From a virus (taxonomy: Duplodnaviria > Caudoviricetes): a stretch of 64,000 nt of DNA. Each line of letters starts with the position of its first letter. Position 1 is the first letter of the stretch. The notes beneath the pieces were generated by a model, which ran no database searches, had not been told where the DNA came from, and saw only the letters and a program-made list of their open reading frames with translations. A program made the position numbers and the translations under genes. Location of the stretch: positions 1 to 64,000 of IMG/VR virus record IMGVR_UViG_3300014205_000015; one strand, 5' to 3'. Shown here one piece after another: positions 17,415 through 61,581 of this stretch.

Positions 17415-17452
17415 TATTCTTTCCTCCGGGTAGGGTTTCAACGGGTTTAGCT

Positions 17453-17509
17453 GCCTCGTCAGGTCATCCCCACTACGGGATAACTACGCCCACAAGTGAG
17501 CGTTTCGGC
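17453..17509 (-). ncRNA. type II hammerhead ribozyme
   Basis: Minus strand: GCC-GAAA-CGCUCAC-UU-GUGGGCG-UA-GUUAUCCC-GUAGUG-GGGAUGAC-CUGACGA-GGC. Full core (CUGANGA, GAAA, GUA triplet) with stems III, I and II. Confidence 0.85.
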
Positions 17510-17510
17510 T

Positions 17511-23620: not shown

Positions 23621-23694
23621 GGAGTCGGTAGCTCAGGGGTAGAGCAGCGGGGCATGTAATCCGCGGTTGATGGTTCGAATCCGTCCCGATTCCA
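23621..23694 (+). tRNA. atypical tRNA (Thr-UGU-like; 8-nt anticodon loop, 8-bp acceptor stem)
   Basis: Cloverleaf: GGAGTCGG/CCGATTCC, TA-GCTC..GAGC D arm, GCGGG/TCCGC stem with loop GCATGTAA, GATGG-TTCGAAT-CCGTC T arm; no separate encoded CCA. Confidence 0.75.
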
Positions 23695-27519: not shown

Positions 27520-27990
27520 ATGAGCGAACGATGGGACAATCATTTCTTGCGATTGTGTCAGGACCATGCAAGGATGTCGAAAGACCCAAGCACACGAGTT
27601 GGCGCTGTAATAGTCGGACCTGACGGGGAAATTAGGTCGGCTGGATTCAACGGTTTCCCACGCGGAATTCTCGATAGCGACGAACGCCTGAACGACCGAG
27701 ACACAAAGCTAAAGCTGATGGTCCACGGGGAAATGAACGCGATTTTAGCAGCTGCGAGAGTTGGGACGCCGGTGAAGGGATGCACGCTGTACCTCGCGGC
27801 TACTGATTCATCGGGGATTGTGTGGGGCGGTCCTCCGTGTGTGCGCTGTACAGTTGAAGTAATTCAGGCAGGCATAACAGAAGTGGTGTCTTACCCCAAA
27901 CGCAGTGTTCCATCAAAATGGCATGAGGATTTGGCAATGGCTGAAACTCTTTTACGTGAAGCGGGGATTGGTTACAGATGCGTCGATTAG
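27520..27990 (+). CDS. dCMP deaminase (ComEB-like zinc deaminase)
   Basis: SKDPST.VGAVIV, GFNGFPRG, HGEMNAI, PCVRC. Confidence 0.92.
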   Translation: MSERWDNHFLRLCQDHARMSKDPSTRVGAVIVGPDGEIRSAGFNGFPRGILDSDERLNDRDTKLKLMVHGEMNAILAAARVGTPVKGCTLYLAATDSSGIVWGGPPCVRCTVEVIQAGITEVVSYPKRSVPSKWHEDLAMAETLLREAGIGYRCVD

Positions 27991-28277
27991 AAATCAAACC
28001 CGGAGAAACCTACGGCGACCTCAAAATCATCAAGGAAGTCGAATCCAGGGGCAAACGTCACTTTTTATGCCAGTGTGCCTGTGGCGGAAGTCCGTCAGTT
28101 CACCGACTGGGGCACTTACGCTCAGGTCACGCCACGACATGCGGTCGCTGTGGTTTCGAATTTGAGGGACAGCGGAAGACAATCGCAGATTGGGCGGAAT
28201 TGTATGGGCTGAAGGAGTCTACGTTGCGAGCTCGGCTAAAGGTGATGGGCGTTAAAGAGGCACTGGAGCGGACATGA
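27978..28277 (+). CDS. HNH-family derivative lacking the nuclease core (zinc finger fused to HTH)
   Basis: YGDLKII..CQCACG..CGRC joined directly to G.RKTIADWAELYG..STLRARL. Confidence 0.7.
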   Translation: MRRLEIKPGETYGDLKIIKEVESRGKRHFLCQCACGGSPSVHRLGHLRSGHATTCGRCGFEFEGQRKTIADWAELYGLKESTLRARLKVMGVKEALERT

Positions 28278-28657
28278 GCCAAGCCGACGAATACATCCAG
28301 GAAGCACTGGAGCTAGCAGAGGACAATGCTGGTGACCGCTGCCCGCTGTCGTCCGATGCGTGTGGTGCATACTTCGAGCAGATACGGGACTTGTTACGGA
28401 AGGTGAGCGAAAACGCCGGACAGAACGTGAGCCAAGCCGATTCCGAGGAAATGCACACTGCCCTAGAGCAGATAGCAGCGCTAGCCCATCATGGTGGACT
28501 GATAGGATTCTCGGACGTAGACAAGTGCCTGAGAGAAGTACGGCGGATTTCGTTGAAGTGGTGGGACAAGAGCGAGTGTGCTAGGCTGCAAGAGGAAATA
28601 GACGCAGTTCCACCAGGGTTTTCAGATTCTTCGCACTTTCCTATTGACCCACAGTAG
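28274..28657 (+). CDS. hypothetical protein
   Basis: ATGA-coupled. Confidence 0.65.
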   Translation: MSQADEYIQEALELAEDNAGDRCPLSSDACGAYFEQIRDLLRKVSENAGQNVSQADSEEMHTALEQIAALAHHGGLIGFSDVDKCLREVRRISLKWWDKSECARLQEEIDAVPPGFSDSSHFPIDPQ

Positions 28658-28672
28658 CAAGCTGTATAAAGT
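28644..28672 (+). promoter_or_regulatory. sigma70-like promoter of the repeat-array operon
   Basis: TTGACC-N17-TAAAGT; spacer resembles that of the 26182 promoter. Confidence 0.6.
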
Positions 28673-28783: not shown

Positions 28784-29269
28784 ATGGCTATTGTTGAAAA
28801 AGCAAGAGTGAAATGGGCAGATAAAGAGGCGGCAATTCGGTCGCTCGAGTCTGGCGGTAAAATCGACCCACTGGATTTGATTGAAGCCGCTCGCGATCCT
28901 GAACATCCGTGTCACTCTGATTTCACTTGGGACATCGACCAAGCGGCTGCCGAACGGTGGCGGGATCAAGCCCGTGAGTTGATTCGCTCGTGCAAGTTTG
29001 AAGTGCGAGTGGAAGACGTAGGCAGCAGGGTTTGCATGTACGTTCCATCTGGCGACGAAGATGCAACATTCGTGTCACTACCAAAGATTCGCAGCAAGGC
29101 TCAGGCGTCTGCGGTTGTTCTAGCGGAGGTTGCCATGTTGCTTGGGAATGCTTCTCGGGCATACGGGATAGCGTTGTCGAAAACGAACATTGTTGGCGCT
29201 GACGTTGTTGTTCAGTTGAAAGCGATTCGCGAACTGGTGGCTACGCTGAAGGCTGAGCTAGAGGATTGA
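28784..29269 (+). CDS. accessory protein of the array system (helical, possibly DNA-binding)
   Basis: DLIEAARDPEHPCHSDFTWD...A...ARELIRS; first gene of the operon, directly followed by array 1. Confidence 0.75.
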   Translation: MAIVEKARVKWADKEAAIRSLESGGKIDPLDLIEAARDPEHPCHSDFTWDIDQAAAERWRDQARELIRSCKFEVRVEDVGSRVCMYVPSGDEDATFVSLPKIRSKAQASAVVLAEVAMLLGNASRAYGIALSKTNIVGADVVVQLKAIRELVATLKAELED

Positions 29270-29275
29270 TTCATT

Positions 29276-29593
29276 GGTCAAGGAATGTCGGGGCGTGGTT
29301 CGGCGTGGTGTTTCAGGTTTCGGTATGCTTGGGCGGTCATGGAGAGGTCGGGCTAGGTGCGCTCTTGCGAGTCGAGTCGAGGCGGTCGAGTCCGTGCGGG
29401 GTGCGGAGTGCTCTGGTTGGGTCGGTCCAGGTTGGGTTCGGCGGTCGCGGTTAGGAATGGCGTGCTGCGGCGAGTCGGGGCTCGTTCCGGTTGGGCGGTC
29501 AAAGTGGGTCAAGGCTTGGTGCGAAGTGGTGCGTCCTGGAAAGGCGGTCGAGGCGGGGATTGGAGTGGCCCGTATTGGTCCGACAAGGCGGTC
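29276..29593 (+). repeat. 5-nt periodic guide-like array 1 (6 units, GGTC-NN-[GGY-NN]n-GGC)
   Basis: Units start at 29276, 29335, 29384, 29443, 29497, 29546; lengths 59, 49, 59, 54, 49, 44 (all 5n+4). Confidence 0.92.
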
Positions 29594-29681: not shown

Positions 29682-30446
29682 ATGGCAAAAGCATCTGGTG
29701 TTTTGGAAGCGATTGAAGTTGAACCACTACGAGTTGGCAGTATGCAAGTCTGGCTGCGTGGTATCACGCCGCTGATCTGTAATCGATTGGCGGCAAAGGC
29801 ACGGCGCGAGCTGTTGCTTCCGAAGGGACGAAAGTCGACGGCGGAAAAGCAGCAATCGCTGAAGCATGATCCGGTAGCTGAGTTCCGAGACAGCATGAAT
29901 GTGCGATCTGGTGTTGGACCTACACGAGTAGTGTTTCCTGCGCCCGCAGTGAAGGGTTCTATGGCTACTGCCGCGCTGGAGACGAAAGGCACGAACAAAA
30001 CGCAGATTGGTCGTTTGGTTCGTGTGGCTGGTTATTCACTGGATGTCTACGGAATACCAGAATTATTCATGGCTATTGTTCGTTCGGCGGACATGGCTCG
30101 GACGCCCGACGTTCGGACGCGAGCGATCTTGCGCGAGTGGTGCATGCCTGTTACCGTTCAGTACGTCAAGCCGCAGATGTCTGAGCAGGCTATTATGCAA
30201 TTGCTTGCCAACGGCGGAATTATCATCGGAGTAGGTGATTTTCGTCAAGAAAAAGGCAAAGGCGATTTTGGCTGCTACGAGGTCGTCACCGAAGCCGATT
30301 GTAAGGACATTATCAAAAATGGCGGGTTGAAGCAGCAAGACGCTGCGATCAAGACTCCCGTCTGCTTCGACAGTGACACTGAAGAACTTTTAGGCTGGTT
30401 CCAACAGGAAGTTAAAGTTAGAGGAAAGGGAGAACTGGTTGCCTAA
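29682..30446 (+). CDS. Cas7/RAMP-like RNA-binding protein (VIPR-like effector candidate)
   Basis: N-terminal beta strand 'WLRGITPLI', FPAPAVKGS helix, RTRA..W core, C-terminal Gly-rich loop GGIIIGVGDFRQEKGKGDFG; flanked by both arrays. Confidence 0.75.
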   Translation: MAKASGVLEAIEVEPLRVGSMQVWLRGITPLICNRLAAKARRELLLPKGRKSTAEKQQSLKHDPVAEFRDSMNVRSGVGPTRVVFPAPAVKGSMATAALETKGTNKTQIGRLVRVAGYSLDVYGIPELFMAIVRSADMARTPDVRTRAILREWCMPVTVQYVKPQMSEQAIMQLLANGGIIIGVGDFRQEKGKGDFGCYEVVTEADCKDIIKNGGLKQQDAAIKTPVCFDSDTEELLGWFQQEVKVRGKGELVA

Positions 30447-30455
30447 CTGTCAATT

Positions 30456-31106
30456 GGTCGCGGAGAGGTATGGCAACATAAGTCACGGTCCGGCGAGTCA
30501 TGTCCGGGCGGTCATGGAATGGTTGGGCACGGCACCATATGGTATGTCGCGGCTTGGCGTGGCGGTCCCGGTTGGGTCCGGTAAAGCTGGTCGGGGCGGG
30601 GTGTTGCGAGCCCGGGTTTGGCGGTCGGGGTACGGTTCGGCACGGCGGGTCGGAGCATGGAATGTTGCGGCGGTCGCGTCGAGGTGCGGTGCGTTTGGGC
30701 GAGTCCAGGCGCGTCGGGGTATGGTTGGGCGGTCGAGGTGAGGAAAGGCTGCGCTAGTTCAGGCGAGTCATGGCACTGGCGGTCGCGGTATGTCCTGACT
30801 AGTCATGTGAGGAAAGGCGAGGCGGGGCGGTCGAGTCGGGTCTTGGAGAGGTTCGGTCCGTTGCGGTCTGTCCGGGCGGTTTGTCAAAGCTAGGCTGCGC
30901 GTGGCGGTCATGGTGACGAGAGGCTGGGTATGGTACGTCGCGGCGGGTCTGGGGCCGGTGAGGCGGTCAAGATTCGTCAGGTCGCGGACAGGCGGGGCGG
31001 GGTACGCTTAGGCGGGCCTAGTCCTGGCGGTCGCGTCGGGGTCTGGAGTGGCACGGTCGGGCAAGGTGAGTCGAGCTCTGGCGTGGTGAGTATCGGCAAG
31101 CCGGTC
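30456..31106 (+). repeat. 5-nt periodic guide-like array 2 (12 units)
   Basis: Units start at 30456, 30510, 30564, 30623, 30672, 30731, 30781, 30829, 30878, 30906, 30965, 31029; junction GGC-GGTC. Confidence 0.92.
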
Positions 31107-31127
31107 GTGATTGACTGTTAAGAGGTC

Positions 31128-33059
31128 ATGCAGCACAATTGCTGCATGACCTCTCCTTTTTTTGATTTAGTCCCAAAAGACCCAATTGAGAATCTCCGTT
31201 GGCGCATTCGTTGCCGCGAGCGTGCATTGGCTGATAAGCGGTTTCGAGACTCGCTATATCAAGCGTGCATGAGTGATCTTTGTTTCTGGATGGCATTTGC
31301 CTGTTGGGGATACGACCCGCGAGCCCGCTTCAAGATCGTTCCATTTGTACCCTATCCACATCAACAAGCTGTGTTCGTGGCGATGGATGAAGCCATAAGC
31401 ACTGCCGAACGTGAAGAACGATCGGTCGACGTGATCCTGGACAAAAGTCGGGCTCAAGGTGGATCTTTTGGATATCTTTGGGTCGACCTTCGGCGCTGGC
31501 TGCGCGATCCAATGTTTTCAGCAGGTTTTGTTACGAAAAATGAAGATTCGATTGATTCAAAGAGCGACTCATCGACGGTGCTGTGGAAAGTGGCATGGGC
31601 GATTGAGCGATTGCCTTTCTGGATGAAGCCCAATTACGAACGGCATCTTGGTCAGCACACTTTCATTAACAACGACAACGGTTCGTTATTGCGAGGATAC
31701 TCTGCAGGGCAAGACGTGGCAGCCGGTGGCCGTACGACTGTGTTCACAGTGGACGAAGCTGGCGCGAGAGACTTCGTTTCAGGTGGCAAAGACGAAGCGG
31801 TTCAGGAGTCTATTCAAGACGTGTCCAACTGCATTCGCATGGTCTCTGCTCGTTACGTGGATGCAGGTGTCTTTCACGAAGCCTGCGAAAACCCAGACAC
31901 GAAAAAGAACGGTATTCATCTTATACTGGACTGGAAAGACCACCCCGCTCAAAGCAAGCACTCTTACATTGTGCGAGAGGGAATCGCGGTTGCCATAAAG
32001 CCGGAAGATCAAGCGGCGGTCACGGAATACCACCGAAAACACCCTGACCTGCGATCCCGACTGGAAAGAAAAGGATTTAAATTTGAAGTGGTTGTTCGCA
32101 GTCCGTGGTACGACTCTCGATGTTTGCGCCCGACAGCCACCCCGCGACTGATAGCTTCGCAGCTCGACCGCAACCCTCGCGGAGCAGTAGGTAAAGTTTT
32201 CGCATCAGACCTCTTGGACCGCATGAAGCGAGAGCACTGCAAGGGTCCAGTTTGGGTGGGCAATCCAGTATTTGACTCAGAAACCTGCAAACTAACGGGA
32301 TTGATTCCCAGGGATGACGGCTTGCTGAAACTGTGGTTCAAGCCGGGCATCGACAACTCACCGCCGCTGGGACCGTTCACCGCGGGATGCGACATCGCTT
32401 CGGGTGGAGTTGGGGCGTATTCCTCAAACTCGGTCATAACGGCGCTGGACGACAGAACCGGGGAGCAAGTCTTGGAGTACACGGTCAAGGGACTCGAGCC
32501 ACGACCGTTTGCACGCCGGGTGGTTGGGCTGTGCATGTGGCTTAGAAACGCACTGCTTGGCTGGGAGGATTCCGGGGTGTCTGGTGGTTTTGCTAAGGAA
32601 ATCATGGAAGTTCTTTATTATGGTTCCGTGTTCTATCGGGACGTAAACCAGCTCGGTTCCCAGAAGAAAAGCCGCAAGCCTGGCTGGCCGTGCCGTGACG
32701 CAGACAAAGCGGACGATTTTGAGCAAATGGCGCTGGCGATGGAGACTGGGAAGTTCGTTCCGCGTTCCGAGGAAATGATTGTCGAGTGTTCTGAATATGA
32801 GTGGGACGGCACCAAAATCATTCACGCACCGTCGAAAAACAAGGGGGCGGCTGACAAGAATCACGCCGACCGCGCTATAGCAATGGCAGGCTGTTGGAAG
32901 GTCTTTAGCACCGATAATGCAACCCGTAAGATTGACACAGACGTGGAAAACGGTCAGAATCCAGAGTACGGCTCGTTTTTATGGCGAGAGCAGCAAGAGC
33001 GCCGGAACGTGAAAACGGGTAGCCCGAAGTTCGGGATTAGGGACATTATTGGACGCTAA
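31128..33059 (+). CDS. terL: terminase large subunit
   Basis: PYPHQ, Walker A-like KSRAQGGS, Walker B VDEAG, RNase H-like GCDIASG, HADRAIA. Confidence 0.92.
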   Translation: MQHNCCMTSPFFDLVPKDPIENLRWRIRCRERALADKRFRDSLYQACMSDLCFWMAFACWGYDPRARFKIVPFVPYPHQQAVFVAMDEAISTAEREERSVDVILDKSRAQGGSFGYLWVDLRRWLRDPMFSAGFVTKNEDSIDSKSDSSTVLWKVAWAIERLPFWMKPNYERHLGQHTFINNDNGSLLRGYSAGQDVAAGGRTTVFTVDEAGARDFVSGGKDEAVQESIQDVSNCIRMVSARYVDAGVFHEACENPDTKKNGIHLILDWKDHPAQSKHSYIVREGIAVAIKPEDQAAVTEYHRKHPDLRSRLERKGFKFEVVVRSPWYDSRCLRPTATPRLIASQLDRNPRGAVGKVFASDLLDRMKREHCKGPVWVGNPVFDSETCKLTGLIPRDDGLLKLWFKPGIDNSPPLGPFTAGCDIASGGVGAYSSNSVITALDDRTGEQVLEYTVKGLEPRPFARRVVGLCMWLRNALLGWEDSGVSGGFAKEIMEVLYYGSVFYRDVNQLGSQKKSRKPGWPCRDADKADDFEQMALAMETGKFVPRSEEMIVECSEYEWDGTKIIHAPSKNKGAADKNHADRAIAMAGCWKVFSTDNATRKIDTDVENGQNPEYGSFLWREQQERRNVKTGSPKFGIRDIIGR

Positions 33060-59500: not shown

Positions 59501-61581
59501 GCGTGTTCAAGATGGCGCACTTGCTTGCCAATCAACAGTTCTTAAATGAGGTACGAGACGCTGGGCTAGGCAAATGGCTTCGCACGGACGAGGAAGGACC
59601 AATCATCAACGAGTATGGCGAAATCATCACGCCTATCGCAGCCGAGAGCAGTTCTGTCATGGAACCTCTAAACGGACTGCTCACTACGCCAGAAATAAAG
59701 AAAGCATTCGAGCGTTTCGATTCTCCTGGTGCCATGCCGGAGTGGCTGCGGGTGATGATGTCGGTGAATTACGCAGTCAAATACGGAAAGACCGTAGGGT
59801 CGGTAATGACGCACGTTCGTAATACTGTCTCTAACGTAGGGTTCGCAGTAGCCAACGGGCACTGGCGGCTTAGTAAGGCTGGAAGGGCGGTGTGGGGCAC
59901 AGCGACAGGAACATTCCAGCTTTCTGATGCAAAGTTCCGTGAATACTACAACCGACTCGCAGAACTGGGGATTGTTGGAGAAGACGTTCGAGCTGGCGAG
60001 CTAAAGGATGCGCTGCGGGACGCTTCGCAGGCAGATATCGACGAGTTCCTGTATAACCGCGAAGCGCGCCACGCAAAGAGGTTGGTCGGCATGGGGAGGG
60101 CTGGATTCAGGTTCCTAAACTCCCTATACCAAGCCGAGGATGGCGTTTGGAAAATCTACGCATGGGAGAACGAGAAGGCTCGCTACGCCAAGGCGTATCC
60201 AGGATGGTCGGAGCAGAAGGTTGAGGAGCACGCAGCCAATATTGTCCGAAACACCTATCCGACATACAGCAAGATCCCTGAAGCGATTAAAGCGCTTCGT
60301 CGGTTCCCGTTAGTTGGTACGTTTGTCAGCTTCCCGTCTGAGGTGGTTCGAACGACGTTCCACACTGTCGCGCTGGGCGTTGAGGAGATGCAATCGCCGG
60401 AAACACGGGCTATTGGAGCGCAAAGACTGGCTGGTACAGTGATGTCCATTGGAATACTGTCTGTGTTATCCCGCGCCATGATGGCGATGTACGGTATTGA
60501 TGATGACGAGGACGAGGACTTGAGGTGGTTTGTTCCTCCGTGGCAGGAGAATAGCCGATTCGTCTACCTTAACAAGCCGCAGGACGCCACGTTCCATTTT
60601 GTAGACTTGGGCTACTCCGACCCGCACGCATACCTCACTGACTCCGTGGTTGCGTTCATGCGAGGTGGCGACTGGAAGGACAGGCTAGGGAAAGCTACTG
60701 CGGAATTCCTTAGTCCATTTGCGTCGGAAGAGATATTAGCAAAGGCTCTAATGGACCTACGCAGTAATGCTGGCGACAAGATTTACAACACAAGGGATGA
60801 GATTGGGGAGCAGGCTAAGGATATTGTTGCGCATCTGTGGACCAGTGCTCTGGAACCAGGGACCGTTTCATCGGTGCGTCGAATCGTAACAGCCATAGGA
60901 GGAACTGACCCATCCAAGAGCGTGCGGGATGAAGTTTTAGCCGTCGCGACTGGGCAGCGACTACAGAAAGTCGATGTCGAGCATTCTCTTGGATTCCGTG
61001 CCAGGGACTTCGGTAAGACGCTGACTCAGATTCAAGGTATTGCCCGCAAGACTGTCACCTCGCGCGGAACAGCCACCGGCGCAATGGTCGCAACTGACTT
61101 GGCCCGCATGGAGAGGCTGCGGCTTGCGGCGTTTTCGGAAATGCAGCAGATCGCTGGGGCAGCGAGACGACTGGGTGTACCAGAGGAGTCTATTCGGACG
61201 ATGTTGACTGCGGAACTGCCGGACGATGTTGCGGAACAGTTGATGACGGGTGACTATTCATCCTACGAGATGACGCCCGAGACAGTGCGACAGATGATGG
61301 ACGCGAAGCCGGAGGAATTTATGCAACGTTTCTCCGCATGGCACGGACAACGGACGCCAGAGGCGATACGGTCATACGTTGGCCAGAGGCTTGCAAATAG
61401 CGAGCCAGCTGATATTAAGGGCGAACTGGATTTGCTGGGAATTACGCTTGAGGAGTGCAAGCAGGCACTGAAGGATTACTGGAAGTTTCGAGAGTGGCCG
61501 ATAAGTGAAAAAGGCATAATGGTAGACGCTTTGCAGAAAAGGTTTCGGAAACTGGAGGCACTTTACAAAACCGAGAACTAA
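53533..61581 (+). CDS. giant internal virion / large polyvalent protein (about 2680 aa)
   Basis: Gly/Ala helical N-terminus, HEVMH zincin-like motif, TGRETTPYP...WLIENA..EA..RGDDFN domain, helical C-terminus with RFPLVGTFVSF motif. Confidence 0.85.
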   Translation: MGTITDRIRRLGRQDAAPSEDGAGIGQIDEREQAIIDRYTSAAPGVSFLQKAARGSAKLEIDTRRQQRAYAEKPTSPLAAITVDPAREMVANLGDRAKVLDTYRKLSPEQRQEALSLAPGIAQQLGDDRGGVVGRTLGAVSRGISHGVSQPLAELVGLGGTPEEIEYIRQLDAAASQEFSPARPGDPWYERGPLQAVEMAPWMATVVGGAGVGRAAATGIAGRLGMAARGTAAAAKTGELAGITTAAFPGQYAQEVDQLKELGMEDGTNLRLLAGGTAAIAGLIEGIVPNPFKAGPVPLTEGAVKAARQYLWEAAKRAPGEMSEEYLQGVTSGLGSHVAQYLDENAEDRSIADAFQTGWEQAKEAALPMAFLLGVPAVGGAGLSAARARRLTRLQEVLAKGPVSRKAGRELGIEGNQDERTAIAAAEKAQLEQEAAQVSATPPLTQGPTDASQVPADEARNDVQGDGGEGSQVDSGSEVYQPGQEQGVSQPESKEPEAQEVQVAPWQQTPSEYVAGETDADAVAVRRASHPQAVKRALTEGEQVPRAVLDAYANNTWAKKAIERLYPNEPGQLPTEPEAAATPPVAPATEVSQQPSEGSVSTIVDKAEKLPVPATPEQAEPAAVPGSRFAGKSDKELASIQQMYEDNIKTKKAKNEKVSPEWERGLDEVRALRAGADPQTEIVTDTSVYGHPQNPSSREGHQNLIPIKFGADADLAWRWDEIQKRAAVLMAEIGDAQNRALRGKTPAIRKKASDELKSANHSDKEQELKDLKEAQAYLNELSKKQSGLTKKQAVETGKPSTAGLSEEVIGSPPVSPDALGETPETSMGKAVGNELPSEARAEETEPQQPDSKWQSETRTLLEAVPALKGANVEPDEKAGTVKVTRPDGLSTTIHFNADKELAEAAKSKLRNPESIHGWYVRKPGEAEGRIYVRSDANHSNILNHEVMHWLEDEGVVTKEEVEKYGGREAIAEKYGKWAELKKRKKDSVFQRIYDTLEPVFSAQRRFFEDVSKRQAAEKPSEKRRGPKDQPGARRMEPTEEGRPADGKPIMPGDRFLTNTGRETTPYPKYSGATNRQVINAEKKSQLWLIENAIAEAESRGDDFNLTTFRGELEDARKGKLPPASKDSATLYVFGEDIPKVPKPFLKEPGAKPLSSATEQARENLRRRGKRKPSQAELDAETASVIREREADNKVRQDFQSDRDAQKAQEARREFVGKQKAAANPATVDSLGYGDIAQVNDDIERGRVSYEDAIKVADAFVEAGYLPQLRRDQIRKPTQASANQVNVDSGSESKVKPAEDRVKNFTQDLPSLTPEGKATGKQVGNKPKPKPELAPDTARIQAEREAREQAKAGKKQRVAPEGYAALPEMTRAKFETAWDGSDQQAMKDLLHLPNKSLRAEFERRTERKLPRTIKGTSEVVEQVYAARAKPSEAVGVEAEPKNEETQPAPVSVKADFIELKGQNATGVKQTIRVIAGERTLLMERSKHDSEWSIREGTKYTGAIKGKTPVKTGGEILASGIGETKRAKEVAQQIIDGTFDKDADSLFVREDTRNIGLPNAKLAAAIKDYQIARRGSFAKLLREERLYTDGRLLMKVNDKDRDAILKGIGETDEGREMGVVAQMMVDGKKALSRSANAMKPIGYRGGNLTTRTVVLQSQDGDAVTLDKSLHDTVLKKHPDAVPYFREEGRPVSYASNDDVVAIVMPMNMDKPDAKLKELVAGKYDFEAEAAVEDETGDGEGGAEFGKDVGSTLGITSGVPLAGPHRGMGRSVRHFFQRFFTSQGELPADVYDAKVRKEGRAAKEMNRLRNRATDLRRGIKKALNGRELTQADIERMNAVLRGEKAMTTVPVAVRAPLKAMRDHIDSLSSHLILEGVAQGDLVGIITESMGVYATRSYRVFDNPKWRDQVPSAVRNRAVAAIRALDPSKSDAEVAGILESLLFRGAADTPVALLKGSKLGSKDLSTFIARKDIPEWLRDLWGEYKDAGVNYARSVFKMAHLLANQQFLNEVRDAGLGKWLRTDEEGPIINEYGEIITPIAAESSSVMEPLNGLLTTPEIKKAFERFDSPGAMPEWLRVMMSVNYAVKYGKTVGSVMTHVRNTVSNVGFAVANGHWRLSKAGRAVWGTATGTFQLSDAKFREYYNRLAELGIVGEDVRAGELKDALRDASQADIDEFLYNREARHAKRLVGMGRAGFRFLNSLYQAEDGVWKIYAWENEKARYAKAYPGWSEQKVEEHAANIVRNTYPTYSKIPEAIKALRRFPLVGTFVSFPSEVVRTTFHTVALGVEEMQSPETRAIGAQRLAGTVMSIGILSVLSRAMMAMYGIDDDEDEDLRWFVPPWQENSRFVYLNKPQDATFHFVDLGYSDPHAYLTDSVVAFMRGGDWKDRLGKATAEFLSPFASEEILAKALMDLRSNAGDKIYNTRDEIGEQAKDIVAHLWTSALEPGTVSSVRRIVTAIGGTDPSKSVRDEVLAVATGQRLQKVDVEHSLGFRARDFGKTLTQIQGIARKTVTSRGTATGAMVATDLARMERLRLAAFSEMQQIAGAARRLGVPEESIRTMLTAELPDDVAEQLMTGDYSSYEMTPETVRQMMDAKPEEFMQRFSAWHGQRTPEAIRSYVGQRLANSEPADIKGELDLLGITLEECKQALKDYWKFREWPISEKGIMVDALQKRFRKLEALYKTEN
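55331..55348. repeat. palindrome copy 6 (inside giant gene, encodes STIVD)
   Basis: TGTCCACAATTGTGGACA. Confidence 0.9.

What the first reader, a model, noticed from the sequence alone, without database searches (positions are those of the whole stretch)
30564..30964. Units decoding to a primase zinc ribbon and an AlpA/excisionase-like motif: possible anti-satellite targeting
Seen: unit 30564 = CC TG CC AA TG GG GG GT GA CG TT = P-C-P-K/N-C-G-G-V-D-R-F. Unit 30906 = AT GA GA TG AT AC GC GG TG CC GA = I-E-E-W-I-T-A-G-C-P-D/E. Established: PCPxCGGxDRF is the zinc-ribbon signature of P4-type/phage primases. 'IEEWI.AGCP' resembles the C-terminus of AlpA/excisionase-like regulators (recalled, less certain). 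Inference: both gene types are hallmarks of P4-like/PICI satellites, so the phage may be defending against its parasites. The other units also read as protein-like strings (e.g. IERYALEEE, KGKFAVALK, AYIVADGSP, EGFESPALR, AILYIDNEG) with targets not identified.
Basis: partly seen in the sequence, partly recalled or inferred. Interest (0 to 1): 0.8.

Follow-up and report, generated by a model that had tools for sequence, protein, structure and literature searches.

The report
VIPR guides against primase and AlpA
Two guide RNAs in a phage's CRISPR-like VIPR array spell, codon by codon, a primase zinc-ribbon motif and an AlpA excisionase motif of competing mobile elements. This is a well-supported new example of a system first described in 2026, not a new kind of system.

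Summary
Window 30564-30964 lies in the second of two non-coding arrays that flank a 254-aa gene just upstream of terL, in a complete 77.7-kb phage genome. Each unit is GGTC followed by 7-14 five-base steps of a variable NN plus G-[G/T]-Y.

This is a VIPR system, described in three 2026 bioRxiv preprints. The 254-aa protein has a Cas7-like fold, gives a profile match to the solved SUSP1 Vipr protein, and keeps its GGY-contact residues.

- **Unit 30568:** read by the published one-base-skip rule, it has 24 exact 22/22 matches. All are in frame on PCP[N/K]CGGVDRF inside Pfam Zn_Ribbon_Prim domains of primases. Most lie in about 36-kb autonomous phages, and two of those contigs also carry a perfect target of another guide. 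Five lie in integrase-bearing islands of bacterial genomes.
- **Unit 30910:** it has no exact match. It fits, at 18-21 of 22 bases, the near-invariant C-terminal motif W-I-x-A-G-C-P-D of an AlpA/excisionase subfamily. That subfamily heads primase-helicase, resolvase and integrase modules in small islands.

"Anti-satellite" is plausible for the AlpA guide, while rival phages are the better-supported target for the primase guide. The scan had already recognised VIPR on this genome. Verdict: new member of a known kind.

The parts
28644..28672 (+). sigma-70-like promoter candidate ahead of the module
   Evidence: Consensus scan, 9 of 12 matches. A consensus match only.
28784..29269 (+). 161-aa accessory gene in the position of a vap gene
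   Evidence: phrog_15946, no Pfam family. It travels with vipr in relatives at 56-79% identity, and more weakly in distant loci. Homology to the published vap1-6 genes was not tested.
29300..29593 (+). vrRNA array 1: six head-to-tail units of GGTC plus (NN + GGY) repeated 7-11 times
   Evidence: Parsed. Periodicity detector.
29682..30446 (+). vipr gene: 254-aa RAMP/Cas7-like protein (P0001)
   Evidence: phrog_4652. Profile match to PDB 36pp_D 'SUSP1 Vipr protein', E 1e-6. AlphaFold model pLDDT 79.8, with top Foldseek hits to Csm3/Cas7 at probability 1.0. R147, D186, F/W187 and R188 are conserved.
30456..31106 (+). vrRNA array 2: eleven guide units plus one conserved 28-nt element
30564..30622 (+). 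guide unit u09: GGTC plus 11 repeats, NN decoding to P-C-P-[K/N]-C-G-G-V-[D/E]-R-[F/L]
   Evidence: 24 exact 22/22 matches under the NNx rule, all in frame on primase zinc ribbons.
30906..30964 (+). guide unit u16: GGTC plus 11 repeats, NN decoding to I-[D/E]-[D/E]-W-I-T-A-G-C-P-[D/E]
   Evidence: No exact match. Matches of 18-21 of 22 on the conserved C-terminal motif of an AlpA/excisionase subfamily.
30882..30909 (+). conserved 28-nt element inside array 2; not a normal guide
   Evidence: Nearly the same sequence sits at the same place in relatives L001, L002, L004, L005 and L006, while the neighbouring units differ. Its role is unknown.
31121..31164 (+). intrinsic terminator closing array 2
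   Evidence: 15-bp stem, 4-nt loop, then a T-run. It places transcription of the arrays on the + strand.

Best explanation
The stretch is part of the guide array of a phage-borne VIPR system (vap-like gene, array 1, vipr, array 2, terminator).

By the published mechanism, one Vipr protomer binds each five-base repeat. It hides the GGY and presents the NN. The NN pairs with a DNA strand while every third target base is skipped, and the resulting gapped R-loop filament blocks transcription.

- **Unit 30568** is aimed at the zinc-ribbon codons near the 5' end of primase and primase-helicase genes. Its best-supported natural targets are rival phages of about 36 kb, some carrying their own VIPR. 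The same 32-bp footprint also occurs in primases of integrase-bearing islands.
- **Unit 30910** is aimed at the last conserved codons of a small AlpA/excisionase gene. That gene heads the replication module of small integrative, satellite-like elements, so binding there would silence AlpA and block read-through into the primase-helicase gene.

Shown here: the array grammar, Vipr homology and fold, the conserved GGY-contact residues, target matches in codon phase, and the absence of self-targets. Inferred from the preprints, not tested here: expression and processing of the units, filament assembly, silencing, and the benefit to the phage.
For: **The system is VIPR.**
- The grammar is GGTC plus NN+GGY repeats.
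- Relatives keep the GGY frame and the GGC|GGTC junctions but carry different NN strings, as spacers would.
- The vipr product gives a profile hit to the SUSP1 Vipr protein at E 1e-6, covering the thumb arginine and the G-loop D-[W/F]-R. Its fold matches Cas7.
- The published definition and the one-base-skip rule come from bioRxiv 10.64898/2026.04.26.720920 and .720927.

**u09.**
- There are 19 exact hits in IMG/VR. Four 17-18-base patterns gave only 0-4 hits there, which implies about 0.02 or fewer expected for 22 bases.
- There are 5 exact hits in 596 Gb of genomes, against about 0.07 expected (my arithmetic from the stated collection size).
- All 24 are in frame, on the sense strand, inside PF08273 domains.
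- L016 and L025 carry both the u09 target (22/22) and the target of guide 30460 (20/20) in their own vipr. They are syntenic with the complete phage G001.

**u16.**
- Across 120 homologs of the AlpA subfamily, a mean of 7.9 of 11 residues are compatible with the guide. Order-shuffled guides give 3.8, and the other 16 units give fractions of 0.25-0.43.
- Columns W, I, A, G, C, P and D/E are 88-100% compatible. The C-P-D columns were not part of the scan pattern that found the family.
- DNA matches are 21/22 in two separate elements (L121/L168 and L175/L176), 20/22 in L167 and 18/22 in L166.

**Self-targeting.** No guide matches the 77.7-kb genome at 80% or more, except one 15/18 match that is probably chance.
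Against: - No RNA data exist for this phage, so transcription and processing of the units are unproven.
- u16 has no perfect target in three large collections.
- Among the 120 listed metagenome hits to its first eight dinucleotides, about 0.6 would reach 21/22 by chance and 2 did. The second, L124, lies in an unrelated 144-aa protein of unknown family. The AlpA reading therefore rests on family-level conservation, not on hit counts.
- The family was found through the best-scoring hit, which is a selection step.
- Each island carries a target of only one guide. None of 65 guides from relatives hits these islands.
- The host is unknown.
- The units lack the invariant 3' tail and pseudoknot of the characterised type II vrRNAs, so how they are processed and capped may differ.
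Confidence: 0.72

Rival explanations
1. One reading: both guides defend the phage against its own satellites (P4-like or PICI-like parasites) by silencing their primase and AlpA genes.
For: - The AlpA targets head AlpA, primase-helicase, resolvase and integrase modules in small islands of bacterial contigs.
- The island of about 10 kb in L166 has an ORF matching a small terminase subunit family (phrog_2538, E 8.7e-6).
- The u09 footprint occurs exactly in islands with integrases: L040 has HTH_17, primase and integrase; L038 has DUF3987, the zinc ribbon and an Arm-type integrase.
- Anti-satellite VIPR action is shown experimentally for phage SUSP1.
Against: - Of the 19 viral u09 hits, 18 are in autonomous phages or their fragments.
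- No element carries both targets.
- There is no sequence homology between the islands and this phage that would suggest a helper-satellite pair.
- The two guides that do converge (30460 and 30568) converge on a rival phage lineage.
- The satellite nature of the islands rests on one weak TerS-like hit.
Confidence: 0.3
2. Unit 30910 has no AlpA target. The likeness is a chance or convergent short motif, and the guide is aimed at something not yet sequenced or is obsolete.
For: - There are zero exact matches in the viral, genome and metagenome collections.
- The core [DE][DE]W[IM]TAG occurs in many unrelated proteins, including SRAP, a capsid protein, an HNH nuclease and other recurrent but unannotated proteins.
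- A second 21/22 hit (L124) lies in an unrelated protein.
- The Thr codon at guide position 6 is rare in the AlpA family (5% of members).
Against: - The guide matches every near-invariant column of the AlpA motif, including C-P-D, which was not used in the scan.
- Shuffled guides and the other 16 units score far lower.
- Members with Thr at position 6 do exist.
- Regulators and excision genes of mobile elements are the published class of VIPR targets.
Confidence: 0.2
3. The arrays are not RNA guides at all. They are a DNA-level feature, such as a packaging site next to terL, or a glycine-rich coding region.
For: - The arrays sit directly upstream of terL.
- Open reading frames run through the G-rich region.
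Against: - A strong + strand terminator closes the array.
- The flanked gene is a Cas7-like Vipr homolog, not a small terminase.
- The NN strings change between close relatives while the frame is kept.
- Exact targets in codon phase exist elsewhere.
- The 3-nt periodicity signal is low in this region.
Confidence: 0.02

Closest known systems
VIPR systems, type II, of Escherichia phage SUSP1 and a Pseudomonas fulva prophage (bioRxiv 10.64898/2026.04.26.720920, 10.64898/2026.04.26.720927, 10.64898/2026.10.15.759431)
   Same: - A phage-borne minimal locus: accessory gene plus vipr, flanked by non-coding arrays.
- Guides built of alternating GGY and NN.
- The Vipr RAMP protein keeps the thumb arginine and the G-loop D-[W/F]-R.
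- Targets are read with one skipped base in codon phase.
- Targets lie in competing mobile elements, including other VIPR systems.
- No self-targets.
   Different: - Vipr is only distantly related: tblastn against 50,697 phage records found only Gordonia phages at 24% identity, and the PDB match needs a profile.
- Units are 44-74 nt and abut directly at GGC|GGTC. They lack the roughly 100-nt format with an invariant 3' tail and pseudoknot. This looks more like the 'staggered arrays' the preprint mentions, which is my inference.
- The VIPR type was not assigned.
- The target genes here are a primase zinc ribbon and an AlpA C-terminus, not the F5 satellite recombinase or prophage switch regulators.
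Class 1 CRISPR effector backbones (Cas7/Csm3 filaments)
   Same: - RAMP fold, with top Foldseek hits to Csm3 and type VII Cas7.
- One protomer per fixed RNA step.
- A thumb that interrupts pairing.
   Different: - No identical direct repeats, no cas genes and no adaptation module.
- A 5-nt step with only 2 pairing bases, against a 6-nt step with 5 pairing bases.
- Transcriptional silencing rather than cleavage in the characterised VIPRs.
Phage-encoded CRISPR-Cas of Vibrio phage ICP1 against the PLE satellite (recalled from the literature, not checked here)
   Same: A lytic phage carries an RNA-guided system aimed at a parasitic or competing element of its host.
   Different: That is a true type I-F CRISPR with spacer acquisition and DNA destruction. 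Here the system is VIPR, and satellite targeting is unproven.

Membership tests
VIPR system | Vipr protein: a minimal RAMP (RRM core, G-loop, thumb) related to the solved SUSP1 Vipr | tested here: met
   - Profile of 13 homologs against PDB: the only hit is 36pp_D 'SUSP1 Vipr protein', E 1e-6. The single sequence gives E 0.0027.
- Model pLDDT 79.8. Foldseek gives 37 hits at E<=1e-3; those listed are RAMP-family subunits of CRISPR effector complexes (mostly Csm3/Cas7).
VIPR system | Residues that hold the GGY motif (SUSP1 R138, D177, W178, R179) | tested here: met
   They align to R147 (13/13), D186 (10 D, 2 E), F187 (6 F, 6 W) and R188 (13/13). The residue roles are taken from the preprint.
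VIPR system | vrRNA made of at least 4 tandem YNNGG (GGY/NN) repeats with conserved GGY and hypervariable NN | tested here: met
   - 17 units of 7-14 repeats.
- Position composition: G 93%, G/T 92%, Y 88%; NN entropy 1.9-2.0 bits.
- NN differ between relatives of 77-89% Vipr identity.
VIPR system | Minimal phage-borne locus: vipr plus an accessory gene, flanked by long non-coding regions | tested here: met
   - Complete 77.7-kb phage record with terminal repeats.
- Gene order: 161-aa gene, array, vipr, array, terL.
- The same order is seen in relatives.
- Whether the 161-aa gene is one of vap1-6 was not tested.
VIPR system | Natural targets obey the one-base-skip rule, with skipped bases on codon wobble positions | tested here: met
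   - u09: 24 exact NNx matches, all in codon phase.
- Guide 30460: 20/20 in a rival vipr.
- u16: 18-21 of 22 in codon phase.
- Other skip lengths were not compared.
VIPR system | No self-targeting at 80% or more NN match | tested here: met
   The whole genome was searched on both strands. The only hit is one 15/18 match for unit 30627 at 61066.
VIPR system, type II architecture | Each vrRNA ends in an invariant 3' tail that folds into a pseudoknot | tested here: not met
   Units follow one another directly, with only GGC|GGTC between them. The single conserved 28-nt element (30882-30909) occurs once per array. The locus is therefore not filed as type II.
VIPR system | vrRNAs are expressed, processed and co-purify with Vipr, and binding silences transcription | not testable with these tools
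   This needs RNA sequencing and reporter assays.
Phage satellite (P4-like / PICI-like) as the target element | Small integrative element with an integrase, an AlpA-type regulator and its own primase/replicase | tested here: met
   The elements L166, L167 and L177 have AlpA, primase-helicase, resolvase and integrase in that order. L040 has HTH_17, primase and integrase.
Phage satellite (P4-like / PICI-like) as the target element | Genes for hijacking a helper's capsid or packaging, with no full structural module | tested here: inconclusive
   One ORF in L166 hits a small terminase subunit family at E 8.7e-6. Most island ORFs have no family.
Phage satellite (P4-like / PICI-like) as the target element | Dependence on this phage, or its relatives, as helper | tested here: inconclusive
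   No tblastx homology between the islands and the phage beyond one 34-residue segment. The host is unknown. The u16 pattern was not found in the 401 Planctomycetota genomes searched.

The most novel reading that the evidence does not exclude
The primase guide is a family-level, broad-range weapon. It reads only codon positions 1-2 of an almost invariant zinc-ribbon motif. As a result, one 11-repeat guide matches perfectly in at least three unrelated primase architectures: Toprim+AAA_25, D5/DUF5906-type, and DUF7146-type or stand-alone ribbons. These occur in phages and in islands of Planctomycetota and Alphaproteobacteria. A phage could thus carry innate-like guides against protein motifs rather than against particular genomes, with the AlpA guide as a second case. 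In a staggered, tail-less array, this clade may also process and cap its guides differently from the studied type II systems.
Probability: 0.3. Interest if true: 0.6.

Novelty: new member of a known kind. Interest (0 to 1): 0.45.

Why it matters
VIPR was described only in 2026, and its natural targets are known for a few clades of enterobacterial and Pseudomonas phages. This locus adds an environmental phage, probably from a landfill metagenome, with a distant Vipr and a tail-less head-to-tail array.

It has two clearly decodable guides. One has 24 perfect targets on a primase zinc ribbon. The other sits on the invariant end of an AlpA/excisionase family. Together they show that replication initiation and AlpA-type excision/regulator genes of competitors are recurrent VIPR targets.

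The locus also gives concrete target pairs for testing a non-type-II system. It does not change the concept.

Tried and rejected
**Ideas held before I found the preprints.**
- A TRAP-like protein-binding RNA (11 triplets with 2-nt spacers), a G-quadruplex array, a TIGR-Tas array, and a pac site with a small terminase. All were dropped once the flanked protein proved to be a Cas7-like Vipr homolog and the NN strings found targets in codon phase.

**Targets inside the phage.**
- None were found.

**u16 as a second primase guide.**
- Its best in-frame partial matches in several target primases fall on the motif at the end of the Toprim domain (16/22 in L017, 13-14/22 elsewhere).
- I rejected this because the AlpA family fits much better.

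**u16 scans that gave nothing useful.**
- Exact scans returned no matches in three collections.
- Windows 1-9 and 3-11 gave 0 hits and 1 hit; the one hit contains an in-frame stop.
- The first-eight pattern in IMG/VR gave 4 hits in unrelated families.
- With up to 3 mismatches there was nothing in 15 viral records of relatives or targets, nor in four bacterial genomes carrying the u09 footprint.
- With up to 2 mismatches it was not found in the 401 Planctomycetota genomes searched.

**Other negative results.**
- A homolog of the target primases in this phage: none.
- vipr in the complete target phage G001 and four other records: none found.
- Convergence of relatives' guides on the islands: none of 65 guides.
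- Helper-satellite homology: none.
- RNA evidence: no RNA holder was listed among the sequencing runs.
- Host identification from cluster names: the only name given is 'marine sediment metagenome'.
- Other units: the 29447 pattern gave 0 hits in IMG/VR, and the 30833 pattern gave 4.

Full report
**What is in the sequence.**

The finding's interval lies in a G-rich, non-coding stretch of about 650 nt (30456-31106) that ends in a strong + strand terminator at 31121-31154, just before terL. A second, shorter stretch (29300-29593) lies upstream of a 254-aa gene (29682-30446), so the gene is flanked by two arrays.

Every unit starts with GGTC and continues in five-base steps of two variable bases plus a G-[G/T]-Y triplet. 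Over 160 steps, position 3 is G in 93%, position 4 is G or T in 92%, and position 5 is a pyrimidine in 88%. The two variable positions carry 1.9-2.0 bits of entropy.

The two units in the finding read exactly as written, and so do the other quoted strings. No other such array exists in the 77.7-kb genome. The genome is a complete phage record with terminal repeats. Rfam reports only a hammerhead ribozyme and a tRNA elsewhere in the window.

**What the system is.**

Six relatives with 77-89% identical copies of the 254-aa protein keep the same architecture and the same GGC|GGTC junctions. Their NN strings differ, as spacers would.

I checked this against the three 2026 preprints. They define VIPR as follows:
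- a phage-borne RAMP protein (Vipr) and an accessory gene;
- guide RNAs of alternating GGY and NN;
- one Vipr protomer per repeat;
- pairing of the NN with DNA while every third target base is skipped;
- transcriptional silencing of competing mobile elements.

The protein here meets the definition:
- A profile of 13 homologs hits a single PDB sequence, 'SUSP1 Vipr protein', at E 1e-6.
- The aligned segment carries the thumb arginine and the G-loop D-[W/F]-R that hold the GGY motif. These are conserved as R147, D186, F/W187 and R188.
- An AlphaFold model (pLDDT 79.8) finds Csm3/Cas7 backbones as top structural matches.

One feature of the characterised type II systems is not met. There is no invariant 3' tail between guides; units simply abut. 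I therefore do not assign a type. The layout resembles the 'staggered arrays' the preprint mentions, which is my inference.

**Unit 30568 (primase).**

Written as NNx, the 22 specified bases have 19 exact matches in IMG/VR and 5 in 596 Gb of bacterial genomes. Patterns with 17-18 specified bases gave 0-4 hits in IMG/VR. About 0.02 or fewer would therefore be expected there, and about 0.07 in the genome collection by my arithmetic.

All 24 matches are on the sense strand and in codon phase. They read PCP[N/K]CGGVDRF and lie within Pfam Zn_Ribbon_Prim domains.

The carriers are of three kinds:
- **Autonomous phages.** Eighteen viral hits are in a zinc-ribbon + Toprim + AAA_25 primase-helicase family (630-655 aa where the frame is complete). 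One record (36.5 kb, CheckV 100%) has portal, two capsid-family proteins, scaffold, terminase, tail fibres and endolysin, so it is an autonomous phage.
- **A larger viral contig.** One hit is a D5-type primase on a 60-kb viral contig.
- **Bacterial islands.** The five bacterial hits come from Planctomycetota, Pirellulaceae, Alphaproteobacteria and Paracoccaceae MAGs. At least two of them (L040, L038) lie next to an integrase gene. One island has HTH_17, primase and integrase in that order.

Two contigs of the 36-kb phage lineage, L016 and L025, are syntenic with the complete genome at 70-90% amino-acid identity. They carry their own VIPR cassette of the same design. Their vipr gene is a perfect 20/20 target of this phage's guide at 30460. 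Two guides with perfect matches on one lineage is the strongest indication of a natural target, and that target is a rival phage.

This phage has no such primase.

**Unit 30910 (AlpA).**

No exact match exists in the viral, genome or metagenome collections. None exists within three mismatches in 15 related or target viral records, nor in four bacterial genomes.

A scan with the first eight dinucleotides gave 120 or more metagenome hits, mostly in unrelated proteins. By chance about 0.6 of 120 would reach 21/22, and two did. Hit counts alone therefore prove nothing.

One of the two, L121, is an HTH_17/Phage_AlpA protein, with the match at the end of the domain. Its 160 homologs are about 80 aa long, and JGI annotates many as AlpA or excisionase. 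They carry a near-invariant C-terminal W-I-x-A-G-C-P-D, most commonly IEEWIAAGCPD.

The guide fits this family well:
- It is compatible with every conserved column: W 100%, I 97%, A 88%, G 93%, C 100%, P 100%, D/E 98%.
- It departs only in the family's variable columns.
- The C-P-D columns were not part of the scan pattern.
- Mean compatibility is 7.9 of 11 residues, against 3.8 for 200 order-shuffled guides.
- The other 16 units score fractions of 0.25-0.43 on the same proteins.

At DNA level the match is 21/22 in two separate elements (L121/L168 and L175/L176), 20/22 in L167 and 18/22 in L166. All meet the preprint's 80% criterion.

These AlpA genes sit directly upstream of primase-helicase genes (DUF3854+DUF5906, DUF927, DUF3987 or AAA_25). 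In three of the islands with enough flanking DNA (L166, L167, L177), a resolvase and a tyrosine integrase follow, within islands in bacterial contigs. One island of about 10 kb has an ORF matching a small terminase subunit family at E 8.7e-6.

I put the AlpA reading at about 0.65. The alternatives are a chance likeness or an unsequenced target, including the unexplained 21/22 hit in L124.

**How it most likely works.**

This follows the published mechanism and is not tested here. Each 11-repeat unit would load 11 Vipr protomers and cover a 32-bp footprint.

Both guides have the sense of the coding strand, so the RNA would pair with the template strand. The preprint reports silencing on either strand.
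- The primase footprint lies about 45 codons into the 650-aa genes, a good place for a transcriptional roadblock on a replication gene.
- The AlpA footprint lies at the 3' end of a short gene that heads the replication module. Binding there would hit AlpA and also block read-through into the primase-helicase.

Reading only codon positions 1-2 of invariant motifs would make escape by synonymous change useless. The third preprint shows this for a satellite recombinase.

The observation and both decodings are right, and the refutation criteria are not met. There are primase hits, and NN usage fits codon positions 1-2 by 35-50 bits over other frames.

The anti-satellite inference is only half supported:
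- It is plausible for the AlpA guide.
- For the primase guide, rival phages are better supported.
- No island carries targets of two guides.
- None of 65 guides from relatives hits these islands.
- The islands share no homology with this phage.
- The host is unknown.

**Novelty.**

The kind of system, its gapped code, and its use against satellites and rival VIPR phages are all in the 2026 preprints, and this scan had already recognised VIPR on this genome. What is new:
- a distant Vipr clade in an environmental phage;
- a tail-less array;
- two target classes, the primase zinc ribbon and the AlpA C-terminus;
- a guide whose perfect footprint spans unrelated primase architectures in different phyla.

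I rate this a new member of a known kind, of moderate interest.

Noticed in passing
window 17445-17510 (- strand): Type II hammerhead ribozyme (Rfam RF02276, 50.6 bits). The preprint describes hammerhead-interspersed vrRNA arrays in some VIPR types, but there is no NN+GGY array next to this one.
   Followed up: partly
window 30882-30909: A 28-nt element inside array 2 that does not parse as a guide. It is conserved at the same place in relatives L001, L002, L004, L005 and L006, while the neighbouring units differ. It may be a processing or anchoring signal.
   Followed up: partly
L002:4233 and window 31521: Relatives' guides aim at each other's terL. An L002 guide matches L001 terL at 19/20 and this phage's terL at 17/20. 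This phage's units 30969 and 31033 match terL of L002-L004 at 23/24 and 24-25/28.
   Followed up: partly
L016:2888-4371 and L025: A lineage of phages of about 36 kb carries a VIPR cassette of the same GGC|GGTC design (vipr 43% identical) about 2.5 kb from its primase gene. The complete relative G001 has no vipr that I could find.
   Followed up: partly
window 30833-30877; L171-L174: The NNx pattern of unit 30833 has 4 exact IMG/VR hits. Three read DGLESPALRF in a protein of AT-rich phages. One lies on what looks like a tRNA T-arm and acceptor end (L174).
   Followed up: partly
window 30514-30563; L021:4574: Unit 30514 matches 16/20 (MFCTTMLPFI) on a contig that also carries the primase target of unit 30568. 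This is a possible second guide against that lineage, at the threshold level only.
   Followed up: no
window 27520-28277 and 23622-23693: A dCMP deaminase gene (Pfam PF00383, E 1.6e-16), followed by a 99-aa ORF with weak matches to HNH-endonuclease PHROG families, lies upstream of the VIPR module. A tRNA gene lies at 23622-23693.
   Followed up: no
L124:4875-5309: An unrelated 144-aa protein of unknown family reads IDDWMTAGLPD and matches unit 30910 at 21/22. Whether its motif is conserved was not examined.
   Followed up: no
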